Shown here: positions 38,393 through 62,417 of the stretch, in pieces
How the letters are laid out: the number at the start of each line of letters is the position of its first letter
Position numbering within the stretch: the stretch's first letter is position 1
Program-made: the position numbers and the translations under genes
The notes under the pieces: model-generated
The model's database searches: none
Seen by the model: the letters and a program-made list of their open reading frames with translations, nothing else
What the model was told of the DNA's origin: nothing
Origin: Eledone cirrhosa
Lineage: Eukaryota
DNA length: 64,000 nucleotides
NCBI GenBank assembly: GCA_964016885.1
Contig: OZ024740.1
Coordinates: 25,854,001 to 25,918,000 of the forward strand
Direction of reading: 5' to 3'

Positions 38393-38851
38393 CGAAGGAA
38401 TTATGGTAAGGAAACAGATGGACCATAACGCACCAGAGTACACAATACTTAGAGTAGTAGAATGGGAAATAGGAAAAAGTATGACCACGACGGCAGAGCT
38501 CAAGCCGTTTTGACGGCTATTTCTCTTTCTGGACTAAGTTAGAAGTTTTAGCCTGGTGAATAAATAGCCGAACTTGTCAAGGGGGTACTTCCTTATATGG
38601 GAAGATTGTAGTTGTCAAGAGGATTGGTCAAAATTTGTTGTAAACACAAATAAGTCTATCATGGCATTTGGTAGGAGGTAGAGGTGGCTGAACTTGCTTG
38701 TAGAACAATGAGGGAGTGAGTAGAGCCGGTCAAGCGATGAAAGTGATATGTATACATATAGAAGTGATATGTATACATATCACTTTCATCAAATTTAGTT
38801 CAGCCGTCGAAATGGCTTGAACTCTGCCGTCGGGGTCATACATTTTCCTAT
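38393..38851 (-). mobile_element. Penelope-like pseudo-LTR fragment, family P1 copy a (long arm minus, short inverted arm 38801-38851)
   Basis: Homologous to 43873-44800 and 57308-57410. 38469-38520 is inverted at 38801-38851. Contains a variant HHR (minus 38498-38586: TTGACAA, stem CGGCTATTT/AAATAGCCG, then AAAAC in place of GAAAC). Flanked by (TA)n. Confidence 0.7.
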
Positions 38852-39399
38852 ATATATATATATATATATATATATCAAGAAGACGCGTAGCCGATCTCAC
38901 GGGCTTTAAGTGCTGAGAATATAAAGTTAATATGAAGAATGATTTGCACATGCACAGAGATGCTATAAAATACCTGATAAAATCCTGGTTGAGAGAAGTT
39001 GCTATCTAGCAGTATTCGGGAGTTATGGGTTCCAATACGTCTTAGTAGACGCTGGCAAGATTTCCTTCCATCTTTTATGGTTCGTCAACTTATTTTATAA
39101 GCTATCGTGTAGCATCTCTGCACACGAGAACATCATTGTTTATATGTATATAATAAAAATAAAATGTTCGCTCTACATGGCTGAATACAATAAATGTAAT
39201 CTGAGTTTTTCGAATATTAATAATAACATTCGATTCGTTTGCAATTATGCAAACAAGCCTTAATGTTATAGCCATATTCGCAAAACTCAGATTATACTTA
39301 TATATATATATATATATATATATATATATATATATATATATATATATATATATATATATATATATATATATATATATATATATATATATATATATATAT

Positions 39400-39610
39400 A
39401 AGAAAATGAGGGTATTTTTTAAATGAAAAAAAAAAACGAGATGTCCTGCACGAGTGAAAGTATCAGGAAGTTCTTGTGGCTTTTCTACCACACACCCTCC
39501 ATCTTCTTTATACTTTTGAAAAGCATACGAACTGTGAAACCGGTAAAGAAAACAAATAAAAATTCTTAAAAAGACTCGAGTTGCATTTTCGATTTCATCT
39601 TTTTTCCCTA
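39400..39610 (+). mobile_element. PLE pseudo-LTR 3' fragment between (TA)n tracts
   Basis: Variant HHR at 39513-39548 followed by AATAAA (about 39554) and a pyrimidine-rich end running into (TA/CA)n. Confidence 0.55.
39513..39548 (+). ncRNA. Variant minimal type I hammerhead ribozyme (U3-A8 core)
   Basis: CTT-TTGAAAA-GCA(tacgaac)TGT-GAAAC-CG-GTA-AAG, with palindromic stem III ACCGGT. Confidence 0.5.
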
Positions 39611-39913
39611 TACACACACACATATGAATATATATATGTATATATATATATATATATATATATATATATATATATTCATATATATATATATATATAATTA
39701 AGTTAAAGTGTACATCTACATATGTATACGGAAGTATTAGTATGCATATAAATACACACATGTATACATATGTACATGTACTCAGCTTTTCACTAGACAC
39801 TTTACAGTGAGTGTCAGCTAGTCTGTATGTAACCACACAGACGGACCGGGTTTTAGAGTCATACGGGTTTTCAAGGAAACACATTTCCTCTATTCTCCAG
39901 AGGGCCAGACAGG

Positions 39914-39958
39914 AATATTGGACTAGTTTCGATGTTATTACATCTCATCAGCAATATT
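39914..39958 (-). ncRNA. Minimal type I hammerhead ribozyme (inverted copy of 40634-40678)
   Basis: Exact reverse complement of 40634-40678. Confidence 0.92.
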
Positions 39959-40633
39959 TACCCATCTTCCGGCTTCTCTGGAGAATTGTAAAAGCACATA
40001 TCGTTATATGCTTTTTCTATGAAAATTAGTAGTGGGTAGACTAATTTGCATAGAACGTGAGTCATTGTACGCACCGGTTCAGCGGAAACGATAAAAACAA
40101 ATAACGAAACGAAATTAAATTTCGTTTCGCTTCTAACTCACTTTTGTATGACTGACGCTTAAACAATTAAGTTAAAGTGTACATCTACATATGTATACGG
40201 AAGTATTAGTATGCATATTGCTCTGGAGAATAGAGGAAATGTGTTTCCTTGAAAACCCGTATGACTCTAAAACCCGGTCCGTCTGTGTGGTTACATACAG
40301 ACTAGCTGACACTCACTGTAAAGTGTCTAGTGAAAAGCTGAGTACATGTACATATGTATACATGTGTGTATTTATATGCATACTAATACTTCCGTATACA
40401 TATGTAGATGTACACTTTAACTTAATTGTTTAAGCGTCAGTCATACAAAAGTGAGTTAGAAGCGAAACGAAATTTAATTTCGTTTCGTTATTTGTTTTTA
40501 TCGTTTCCGCTGAACCGGTGCGTACAATGACTCACGTTCTATGCAAATTAGTCTACCCACTACTAATTTTCATAGAAAAAGCATATAACGATATGTGCTT
40601 TTACAATTCTCCAGAGAAGCCGGAAGATGGGTA

Positions 40634-40678
40634 AATATTGCTGATGAGATGTAATAACATCGAAACTAGTCCAATATT
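40634..40678 (+). ncRNA. Minimal type I hammerhead ribozyme, intact core
   Basis: Stem I AATATTG/CAATATT, CTGATGA (40641-47), stem II GATG-taataa-CATC, GAAAC-TA-GTC with palindromic ACTAGT. Predicted cleavage after C40671. Confidence 0.92.
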
Positions 40679-41215
40679 CCTGTCTGGCCCTCTGGAGAAT
40701 AGAGGAAATGTGTTTCCTTGAAAACCCGTATGACTCTAAAACCCGGTCCGTCTGTGTGGTTACATACAGACTAGCTGACACTCACTGTAAAGTGTCTAGT
40801 GAAAAGCTGAGTACATGTACATATGTATACATGTGTGTATTTATATGCATACTAATACTTCCGTATACATATGTAGATGTACACTTTAACTTAATTGTTT
40901 AAGCGTCAGTCATACAAAAGTGAGTTAGAAGCGAAACGAAATTTAATTTCGTTTCGTTATTTGTTTTTATATATATATACATATATATATATATATACAT
41001 ATATATATATATATATACATATATATATATATATACATATATATATATATATATACATATATATATATATATACATATATATATATATATATATATATAT
41101 ATATATATATACATATATATATATATATATATATATATATATATATATATATACATATATATATATATATATATATATATATATATATACATATATATAT
41201 ATACATATATATATA

Positions 41216-60049: not shown

Positions 60050-60190
60050 TATATATATATATATATATATATATATAGAGAGAGAGAGAGAGAGAGAGAG
60101 AGAGAGAGAGAGAGAGAGAGAGGGCGAGAGAGAGAGAGAGAGAGAGAGAGAGAGAGAGAACGGGCGAGAGAGTGTAAGGGAGAGAGAGAG
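60050..60190. repeat. (TA)n(GA)n compound microsatellite
   Basis: Direct reading. Confidence 0.9.
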
Positions 60191-61107
60191 GGGGCGTGAC
60201 AGAAGTGAGGAACAGAGATAGAGAGTAACGACAGTGTAATTTTACATCTTGTTTGCGAGATATTTTAATCACTCAGAGTGCATAGACTGTGTAATGGCTG
60301 TGGGAAAACGATATTTGGAGTTGCAATATATAGTTCTATGTAGGAAATACATCAAGACAATGTTTTCTGATGCCAATATTGCTCTAAATATTGTTTTCCC
60401 AATAGTTGTTGCAGCAATAACTGGGGATGGTGTGGCGAGGCTTTCCTGGCACTGAAAATGATTGAGCCGAAAATTTATGAAGTTTCACCAATTTTAATAT
60501 CCCGTGACTTCACTGTCGCAAGCCTAATGTGGATATATGTGATGCCTCGTTATTCGGTTCCAGCAGATCGATGTTCAGTTCAGTGAGGTAAATAGTGTTA
60601 CAGATATGTCCATGAGTCTGAATTTAGGAAGATGAAGTTGTATAGATTTTATATCCCCTAGCACCACCACCACCACCGTCTCCACACTTCGCCAGCATCA
60701 TCACCGTCACAGACAGCACCTCATTTTTCTAACTACATTCGTAGGTCTAATTACAAAGGCAATTGAATCGTGAATCGTTAGAAGGCGACTTATTGTCCTG
60801 GTGGTATTTATAGATATATTATTATATGTACACCGTAGATGTTTCTGAGCAGAGAAATTGGACCATGATGGAACATCTGTAGATTTATGTAGGTTCTCCA
60901 ACTTTACGTGATATGGACAACTTTCTTTGTATTTCAAAGCATGATTAAACACAAGAACACACACACATACGCACACACAAACACACACATACATACATAT
61001 ATATATATATATATATATATATATATATATATATATATATGTTATATATATATAATATATATATGTTATATATATAACATATATATATATATATGTGTGT
61101 GTGTGTG

Positions 61108-61430
61108 GGTTAGGGGTTAGAGCATTGGACTTGCATTTGAGAGGTTGTAAGTTCAATTCTCGGACCGGCTGATGCGTTTTGTCCTTGAGCAAAACACTTT
61201 ATTTCACGTTGCTCCAGTTTACTCAGCTGTAGAAATGAGTTGCGACGTCACTGGTGCCAAGCTGTATCGGTCAGTGCCTTTCCCTTGGACAACATCGGTG
61301 GCGTGGAGAAGGGAGACTGGTATGCAAGGGCGACTGGTGGTCTTCCACAAAAACAAACTGCCCAGGCTTGTGCGTCGGAGCAAATCTTTCTAGGTTTAAA
61401 CGGTAGTCATTCTTAACCGAGTGGGGCCAA
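61108..61430 (+). mobile_element. tRNA-derived SINE, family B (CORE-like), longer copy
   Basis: tRNA-like head with AAGTTCAATTC, core GTCCTTGAGCAAAACACTTTATTTCACGTTGCTCCAG, and about 200 bp of 3' body. Confidence 0.8.
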
Positions 61431-61623
61431 AGCAATATAACATAAACATCGCCGCTCATTTAACGGAGTAGACTTAAACACTGACATGAGTACACAGTGA
61501 AAAAAATCCACATTTACTTTTGTATATATATATTATATATATATATATATGTATATATATATATATATATATATATATATATATATATATATATATATAT
61601 ATATATATATATATATATATATA

Positions 61624-61805
61624 AGAGCAAACATCACGGGCGCTCTATCTCAAAATTATTTTTGAAAACCATTAGAAATGCGCAACCGGTAAAACTTAAA
61701 AACCAAAACTGAATACTAAGTATTACTAATTTTTACTTATTCCTAATTAAACTATTTTTCACTGGGAACAATTTGTCAGCAATTTCTTTTCCTTTTACCA
61801 ATTTA
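61624..61805 (+). mobile_element. Solo PLE 3' tail, diverged inverted homologue of 62471-62663
   Basis: GAGCAAAC...TTACCAA aligns to the reverse complement of 62471-62663; (TA)n on both sides. Confidence 0.75.
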
Positions 61806-62225
61806 TATATATATATATATATATATATATATATATATATATATATATAGGCAGAACGGAATCCTTGTTGATTCTATTATGGAATACCACAAGCTTGCGT
61901 GTTACGTAAGTTGGATAAATGATTTCGAATTCATGGAAACACCTCAGACGTATATCGTTTGATTTGTCCAAGTCTATTTTTTAACCTGTTAGTTCTTTCG
62001 TTACTTTGGTATTGTATGGTTGTGTTTTGCCTACCGCAATGTTCAATTTGTCAAGCTATTTAAACGTGTGTTATTACTCTAAGGACCTATCCTGATTGAG
62101 TGCTTTATTAACTCATTCCTATTGTAGGTCGACTTTCCTTGGCCACAGCCAAAGCTACCACTTGTATATATATATATATATATATATATATATATATATA
62201 TATATATATATATATATATACATAT

Positions 62226-62417
62226 AAGTTTATCCCAGGTTCAATCGGGGGTAACTACAGTAAGTAAGGTACTCAATACATAGTAGAGTATAAATATCTA
62301 ATATAGAAATAGCTTCTACAGGCTTAGACCTGTTTCATTCCAGAGAGACCGTCAGGAAGCCCTGATGATTTCTCCCGAATAAAACAGTTCTAGTCCCGTA
62401 GAAGCCATTTCTATATT
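62226..62417. mobile_element. Short fold-back PLE remnant with degenerate hammerheads and a one-sided tail
   Basis: 62300-62356 is inverted at 62360-62417. Minus arm GGCTTC-CTGACGG...GAAAC-AG-GTC-TAAGCC; plus arm CTGATGA...AAAAC. Extra ~74 bp on the left. Confidence 0.6.

What the first reader, a model, noticed from the sequence alone, without database searches (positions are those of the whole stretch)
38393..62417. Five unrelated HHR element families share one integration architecture: 5'-joined inverted arms, one-sided 3' tail, (TA)n target
Seen in P1 (38393, 43873, 57308), the 469-nt element, the 581-nt element, the 58517 palindrome and the 62226 fold-back. In each, two arms point outward and one extends about 58-120 bp beyond the other (44724-44800, 40897-40968, about 58339-58458, 58517-58575, 62226-62299). 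The short arm stops at an internal AT-rich spot, and in P1 at the same TTTTCCTAT position in all three copies. Known: Penelope insertions show inverted pLTRs with a one-sided tail. Inferred: a reproducible two-priming-site mechanism at a (TA)n break, shared by a guild of non-coding HHR RNAs using a TA-targeting PLE enzyme.
Basis: partly seen in the sequence, partly recalled or inferred. Interest (0 to 1): 0.8.

Follow-up and report, generated by a model that had tools for sequence, protein, structure and literature searches.

The report
Paired-end footprint of Penelope retroelements
Five repeat families in this animal genome sit in TA microsatellites as two mirror-image arms, nearly always one long and one short, a footprint known from Penelope-like jumping genes that likely records one enzyme starting two copies of an RNA at once and likely lets non-coding ribozyme RNAs hitch a ride.

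Summary
The architecture is real and holds genome-wide. In sampled copies each family ends at one of two fixed points, nearly always in (TA)n (background 5%). Of 98 classifiable two-armed insertions, 93 pair one long with one short end. Inverted arms, a one-sided tail, (TA)n targets and two start sites are published for Penelope-like elements (PLEs), so the core is known.

The families are not unrelated: the 469-nt and 58517 elements are colinear homologues. P1 is not non-coding: it is the 3' end of a coding, Hydra-type PLE with intact reading frames elsewhere in the genome.

P1 and the 581-nt repeat carry a bulged hairpin just behind both end points, and the 62226 element behind its short one. 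This points to P1's enzyme as their likely carrier. The 469/58517 pair lacks this hairpin, and its carrier was not found.

Short arms often reach further 5' than long arms, which argues against fold-back of one cDNA and for two primings per event. This scan has already noted the twin hairpins and the retrozyme footprint on other DNA of this genome. Verdict: new variant of a known kind.

The parts
38393..38745 (-). P1 copy a, long arm with tail; 3' end of a Hydra-type PLE, decayed hammerhead
38788..38850 (+). P1 copy a, short arm ending at TTTTCCTAT; 38746-38787 is a small fold-back filler
39696..40218 (-). 469-nt retrozyme-like repeat, short arm (1.1 units, hammerhead core at 39951)
40221..40970 (+). 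469-nt repeat, long arm (1.6 units, hammerhead core at 40641, tail from about 40897)
43873..44510 (-). P1 copy b, short arm
44511..44805 (+). P1 copy b, long arm: end of the endonuclease reading frame (44511-44640) joined across a deletion to the hammerhead 3' half and the tail (44724-44805)
44729..44752 (+). bulged hairpin 6 nt behind the P1 short end point
57308..57347 (-). P1 copy c, short arm
57351..57410 (+). P1 copy c, tail-only long arm (does not overlap the short arm)
57571..57702 (-). 581-nt retrozyme-like repeat, short arm
57700..58459 (+). 581-nt repeat, long arm (1.3 units); hammerhead 58162-58243; bulged hairpins at 57765-57788 (again at 58346-58369) and about 57882-57906; tail of 118 nt
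58517..58884 (-). 427-nt retrozyme-like repeat (58517 palindrome), long arm with tail 58517-58575; relative of the 469 element
58885..59147 (+). 427-nt repeat, short arm, hammerhead core at 58901
62226..62357 (-). 138-nt hammerhead mini-element, long arm with tail; bulged hairpin at 62271-62289
62355..62419 (+). 138-nt mini-element, short arm
62472..64000 (+). neighbouring coding PLE (RT plus GIY-YIG, one frameshift), with an inverted short arm from 62472 and a 39-nt tail at its far end beyond the window

Best explanation
All five families carry the insertion footprint of Penelope-like retroelements, and each insertion likely arises when the element's enzyme cuts both strands of a TA tract and starts two DNA copies, one at each of two fixed points in the RNA, whose far ends then likely join head to head. 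Shown here: two discrete end points per family; TA flanks; long-plus-short pairing; TAT at 9 of the 10 end points; junctions mostly with 0-4 shared bases; short arms that reach further 5' than long arms; P1 as a coding Hydra-type PLE; a bulged hairpin 4-11 nt behind the end points of P1, 581 and 62226. Inferred: the TA end pairs with the TAT to prime; the hairpins place the enzyme; a dimer uses both sites in one event; the two first strands anneal and prime each other; 581 and 62226 borrow a Hydra-type enzyme; 469 and 427 use another, unidentified PLE; arrays are copied from circular or multimeric RNA. My odds: PLE-type integration 0.95, two primings per event 0.75, hairpin as the start signal 0.65, both arms from one RNA molecule 0.45.
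For: Pairing, long plus short among two-armed insertions: 469 family 12 of 13; 581 family 10 of 10; 62226 family 32, with 1 short+short and 4 unclear; P1 15 in the pattern sample with 1 unclear, and 11 more in long copies with 1 unclear; 427 family 13, with 2 near-long+long and 5 unclear. Junctions: 16 of 23 share 0-4 bases, 1 shares 14, 6 have 2-25 extra bases. In at least 6 of 15 P1 pairs the short arm reaches further 5', and tail-only long arms occur in three families. Variants confined to one insertion are in both arms (L229, L234, L222, L202, L215). The hairpin descriptor hits 2 places in the 3543-nt P1 unit and 2 in the 581 unit, each behind an end point; background is 0.12 per kb. It also hits 25 of 29 copies of the 62226 family. 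PMC11167929: both strands cut and extended, two internal start sites, predicted dimer.
Against: Five exceptions: L012 has two long arms, L340 two short ones, L096 and L104 near-long plus long, and one 469 insertion has an ectopic end. Eleven insertions could not be classed. Solo arms are common (4 of 17 for 469, 6 of 16 for 581, 12 of 49 for 62226), as is the solo arm at 61624-61800, so two primings are not obligatory or the second arm can be tiny. I wrote the hairpin descriptor after seeing the hairpins, so its hit rate is not an independent test. It finds nothing in 469, 427 or the neighbouring PLE. The P1 and 62226 tails are not significantly alike in plain sequence (82 of 300 shuffles score as well). 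In 469 arrays many variants are private to one monomer or one arm, which does not fit one clean circular template. PMC11167929 reports initiation at a site not homologous to the cut DNA and no strand difference in start site.
Confidence: 0.7

Rival explanations
1. One cDNA is primed at the long point, folds back and copies itself, and the endonuclease trims the inverted copy at the short point (self-priming and resolution, as suggested in PMC3846280 and PMC8557442).
For: It gives long-plus-short pairing and shared variants without a second priming; small palindromes and fillers occur at some junctions.
Against: A fold-back copy cannot hold sequence that the first cDNA lacks. Short arms reach further 5' in at least 6 of 15 P1 pairs; L229 has a 3546-nt short arm beside a 393-nt long arm; tail-only long arms occur.
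Confidence: 0.08
2. Two primings, but on two RNA molecules held by an asymmetric enzyme pair, each at one site.
For: Most long arms overlap the short arm's sequence, which on one RNA needs strand displacement. Some 469 variants are in one arm only (L208).
Against: Insertion-specific variants lie in both arms in L229, L234, L222, L202 and L215, though transcripts of one source locus would share them too. One P1 long arm starts exactly at the short point (L257).
Confidence: 0.3
3. The inverted shape is made at DNA level after insertion, by cruciform or template-switch events in TA tracts.
For: Short mirror copies of the P1 end sit in the TA tract at 38185-38365.
Against: A DNA mirror copy would share one end point and could not supply non-overlapping arms or two fixed end points across 93 insertions.
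Confidence: 0.03

Closest known systems
Endonuclease-bearing Penelope-like elements, insertion structure (PMC8557442, passages; PMC3846280, passages)
   Same: Inverted 5'-truncated copy joined at the 5' end, partial tandems, tail often at one end only, (TA)n targets, hammerhead in the terminal repeat.
   Different: Tails here are about 60-118 nt against 30-40 bp. Four of five families have no reading frame. The long-plus-short pairing is counted here.
Hydra clade of PLEs (PMC8557442, section 11 read)
   Same: The P1 protein has a C-terminal endonuclease with VIY..YIG, DKT, RWR for RWK, CxCX5C, CxxC and CxH motifs, a hammerhead and (TA)n targets.
   Different: The unit is 3543 nt against 'generally under 3 kb'. 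The hammerhead has the U3-A8 core variant described for another PLE in PMC4209133. No tree was built. Hairpins at the end points are not mentioned in the passages read.
Poseidon element of Anolis, in vitro (PMC11167929, main text parts 1-2 of 4)
   Same: Two adjacent internal start sites bound the tail; both DNA strands are cut and extended; AT-rich target.
   Different: Another clade. The paper does not link the two sites to the two arms of one insertion and reports no homology at the start site; here 9 of 10 end points end in TAT.
Animal non-LTR retrozymes (PMC7229834, passages and Discussion; bioRxiv 10.64898/2026.07.22.740005, part 1 of 5 and passages)
   Same: The 469, 581 and 427 families are non-coding tandem repeats with one type I hammerhead per unit; PLEs were proposed as their carriers.
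   Different: In the parts read, those papers argue from shared ribozymes, co-occurrence and trees, not from an insertion footprint. The 138-nt element is not tandem.
L1 twin priming (recalled, no call)
   Same: Two primings at one break give an inverted 5' piece joined by microhomology.
   Different: There the second site is variable and the arms do not overlap; here both sites are fixed and the arms mostly overlap.

Membership tests
EN+ Penelope-like elements | Inverted 5'-truncated copy joined at the 5' end | tested here: met
   all five families
EN+ Penelope-like elements | Tail at one end | tested here: met
   93 of 98 classifiable two-armed insertions; tails longer than the published 30-40 bp
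EN+ Penelope-like elements | RT plus GIY-YIG reading frame, P1 family | tested here: met
   784-786 aa stop-free frames with YRDD and VIY..YIG motifs. Pfam gave no hit; Atlas neighbours include GIY-YIG and RVT_1 clusters
EN+ Penelope-like elements | RT plus GIY-YIG reading frame, families 469, 581, 427 and 62226 | tested here: not met
   units are 138-581 nt and repeat in tandem or stand alone; no coding extension in the sense of the arm was seen in the loci examined
Hydra clade (P1) | DKT, RWK, CxCX5C, CxxC and CxH motifs; C-terminal endonuclease | tested here: met
   read from the protein against the description; RWK reads RWR
Hydra clade (P1) | Hammerhead and (TA)n targets | tested here: met
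   type I fold with U3-A8 core; 44 of 47 ends in TA
Hydra clade (P1) | Placement in the RT tree; absence of the CCHH motif | not tested
   no reference Hydra proteins were in hand
Non-LTR retrozymes (469, 581, 427) | Non-coding tandem units, each with a type I hammerhead | tested here: met
   arms of up to 10 units and 6 units; tandem units; folds
Non-LTR retrozymes (62226 element) | Tandem units | tested here: not met
   no head-to-tail unit seen among the first 70 or so pattern matches; 67 of 81 aligned arms start at positions 1-7 of a 138-nt unit
Non-LTR retrozymes | Self-cleavage and circular RNA | not testable with these tools
   needs RNA data or bench work

The most novel reading that the evidence does not exclude
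A Hydra-type retroelement enzyme reads two bulged hairpins on one RNA, linear or circular, and primes both ends of a cut TA tract at once. The two first strands then prime each other, so no separate second-strand step is needed. The hairpin pair is a portable signal that lets RNAs from 138 nt to multi-kilobase arrays be written into the genome.
Probability: 0.35. Interest if true: 0.8.

Novelty: new variant of a known kind. Interest (0 to 1): 0.57.

Why it matters
How Penelope-like elements, the closest mobile relatives of telomerase, make their inverted ends and one-sided tail is named as open in PMC8557442. Strict long-plus-short pairing turns the two start sites seen in vitro into a specific model that can be tested. 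The same footprint on non-coding ribozyme repeats, with a hairpin shared with an intact coding element in the same genome, is direct sequence evidence for the proposed retrozyme-PLE partnership and names a candidate enzyme and signal.

Tried and rejected
One search timed out on the repeats and was rerun with TA masked. Rfam gave only TA-driven microRNA noise and a sub-threshold HH9 hit.

My first hammerhead pattern missed P1 because its stem II is too long. The wider descriptor listed the 469 and 427 hammerheads, plus three hits outside the five families, but not the decayed P1 and 62226 copies or the 581 hammerhead with its long stem II; those were read by eye and by folding.

The idea that the 62226 fold-back moves as one unit, like a MITE, came from the top 40 hits sharing one junction. 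It was rejected: that sample was chosen for colinearity, and in the pattern sample junctions vary and both arms carry the same subfamily letters.

Automatic end calling for the 62226 family over-ran short ends into TA, so the classes were set by hand.

No general large target-site duplication was seen: 28 of 33 young insertions share no unique 18-mer in direct orientation across their flanks.

No carrier for 469/427 was found among 16 Hydra-like 3' regions in hand.

Pfam, PDB sequence search and pairwise BLASTP to the neighbouring PLE gave nothing for the P1 protein.

No RNA holder was listed. Contigs of four runs laid on the 581 unit showed relatives, with listed changes in the loop and not the stems of the short-point hairpin, but 11 rows were hidden, so this is weak.

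Empty sites were not tested.
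Full report
Setting. The window lies in a 3.0-Gb animal genome, 30% G+C. Its first 33.8 kb are a 21-nt tandem array; the rest is rich in TA tracts and repeats.

Observation. I call the two 3' end points short and long. Tail lengths are about 80 (P1), 72 (469), 118 (581), 61 (58517 element) and 76 nt (62226 element).

Genome-wide test of end points. 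Samples were chosen without regard to ends. For 469, 581 and the 58517 element I took the best matches to an internal core. For P1 and the 62226 element I took the first exact matches to an internal pattern along contig 1 (2234 and 7605 matches in the genome): 30 P1 matches and about 70 62226 matches were read. In the 581 family all 26 ends fall at two exact positions and run into TA. In the 469 family, ends fall at unit positions 52-59 or 124-128, with one ectopic end present in two duplicated copies. In P1, 47 ends fall at the two points and 44 run into TA, two into other microsatellites. Background for TA is 5.0% of positions in 19 evenly picked 10-kb stretches.

Pairing. Among two-armed insertions, long plus short was seen in 12 of 13 for 469, 10 of 10 for 581, 32 for the 62226 family, 15 plus 11 for P1 and 13 for the 58517 family: 93 in all. 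Five did not fit: one ectopic end, one decayed short+short (L340), two near-long+long (L096, L104) and one long+long (L012). L012 comes from the long-arm-selected sample, whose conforming cases I left out of the count. Eleven were unclear and are not counted. Duplicated loci were counted once; the window's own copies fall inside four of the samples. Classes for P1, 62226 and 58517 were set by hand. Solo arms are common: 4 of 17, 6 of 16 and 12 of 49 insertions in 469, 581 and 62226.

What the families are. P1 arms continue upstream into an endonuclease reading frame. A search with it found a young subfamily with 784-786 aa stop-free frames, including a 3543-nt tandem unit. The protein shows DKT, RWR, CxCX5C, CxxC and CxH, as described for the Hydra clade. 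Pfam and PDB searches were blank; Atlas neighbours include GIY-YIG and RT clusters. Its hammerhead has a U3-A8 core and long stems II and III, and the predicted cut lies about 22 nt before the short point (core variant described in PMC4209133). The window's own copy at 44511-44640 still holds the end of that frame. The 469, 581 and 427-nt (58517) families are non-coding tandem repeats with one hammerhead per unit, that is retrozyme-like. The 469 and 427 units align colinearly along almost their whole length, and their tail regions score 63 against a shuffle mean of 21, with 0 of 300 shuffles as good. The 62226 family is a 138-nt element with a fixed 5' start and no tandems seen.

A shared signal. 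Folding the tails showed the same hairpin, with a 2-nt bulge on the 3' side, behind the short point of P1 and 581. An earlier scan note reported a second such hairpin behind the long point. A descriptor written after I had seen these hits exactly two places in the P1 unit and two in the 581 unit, one behind each end point, none on the opposite strand, against 0.12 per kb in background. It also fits 25 of 29 copies of the 62226 family, with G-U and A-U alternating at one pair. It finds nothing in 469, 427 or the neighbouring coding PLE. Plain sequence similarity between P1, 581 and 62226 tails is not above shuffles. So there are at least two groups, and only one has a candidate enzyme.

Mechanism. 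Nine of the ten end points end in TAT, which can pair with a cut TA tract. Junctions between arms share 0-4 bases in 16 of 23 young insertions. Short arms often reach further 5' than long arms, and some long arms are tail only. A single cDNA folding back on itself cannot give that, so both arms were most likely primed on RNA. Variants confined to one insertion appear in both arms and in all covered units in L229 and L234 (581) and L215 (469), so the arms share a source. But 469 arrays also hold many monomer-private changes, and one source locus would explain sharing as well as one molecule. Arms run through up to ten units and so past predicted cleavage sites, which fits a circular or an uncut multimeric template; I cannot tell which. 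The model of a dimer priming both ends, with first strands priming each other, is inference.

Against what is known. PMC8557442 (passages; section 11) and PMC3846280 (passages) describe the inverted copy, the tail at one end and (TA)n targets. PMC11167929 (parts 1-2 of 4; a text search of its three supplement files found nothing) shows two internal start sites bounding the tail and extension of both strands. PMC7229834 (passages and Discussion) and the 2026 preprint (part 1 of 5 and passages) propose PLEs as carriers of retrozymes. Six literature searches turned up no paper that counts long-short pairing, reports this footprint on retrozymes or describes the hairpin pair; most listed papers were seen as listings only, and subscription papers and the supplements named under next steps were not seen. 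Earlier notes of this scan report the retrozyme footprint and the twin hairpins on other DNA of this genome; they are not independent support.

Verdict. A real, well-supported footprint of a known class, with a quantitative rule and a candidate signal that make an open mechanistic question testable. New variant of a known kind; interest 0.57.

Noticed in passing
window 62472-64000 and L151:1480-5180: A coding PLE of another type (RT and GIY-YIG in Pfam, Zn-finger linker like Neptune, one frameshift) has the same inverted short arm and a 39-nt tail but no bulged hairpin; a solo short arm of its family sits at 61624-61800.
   Followed up: partly
window 57422-57530 and 58517-58625: A copy of the 427-family tail flanks the 581 insertion on both sides. 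The two copies share private changes but differ at 3 places, so it is probably an older local duplication and not a target-site duplication.
   Followed up: partly
window 38185-38365: Four short mirror copies (6-17 nt) of the P1 long end are embedded in the TA tract to the left of the element; similar repeats of end fragments flank L011 and L232.
   Followed up: no
window 39400-39610: A further repeat with a U3-A8 hammerhead-like core between TA tracts; similar cores occur in L285, L287, L290 and L291.
   Followed up: no
window 41294-43420: A long stop-free frame on the minus strand that looks like a CR1/L2-type LINE reverse transcriptase (label recalled), 5'-truncated at a TA tract.
   Followed up: no
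window 1-33758: A 21-nt tandem array of 1583 copies whose minus strand reads TTTTIEV-like, mucin-like repeats broken by frameshifts; a Pro/Thr-rich repeat lies at 55660-56900.
   Followed up: no
L247, L249, L250, L257, L261 (P1): Many P1 arms begin 62-67 nt before the short point, in the loop of hammerhead stem II; possibly a truncation hot spot, though the search pattern begins there too.
   Followed up: no
L171-L175 and others: One short arm of the 62226 family was amplified inside another repeat and makes up 15 of the roughly 70 pattern matches read.
   Followed up: no
G000:C1:91473000-91494000 (L281-L283): A young P1 insertion of about 20.7 kb with tandem copies, four with 784-786 aa open frames, still bounded by one long and one short end.
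   Followed up: partly
window 48923-54874 and 59217-59612: About ten copies of a 160-200 nt dispersed repeat with a conserved core, probably a SINE (label recalled).
   Followed up: no
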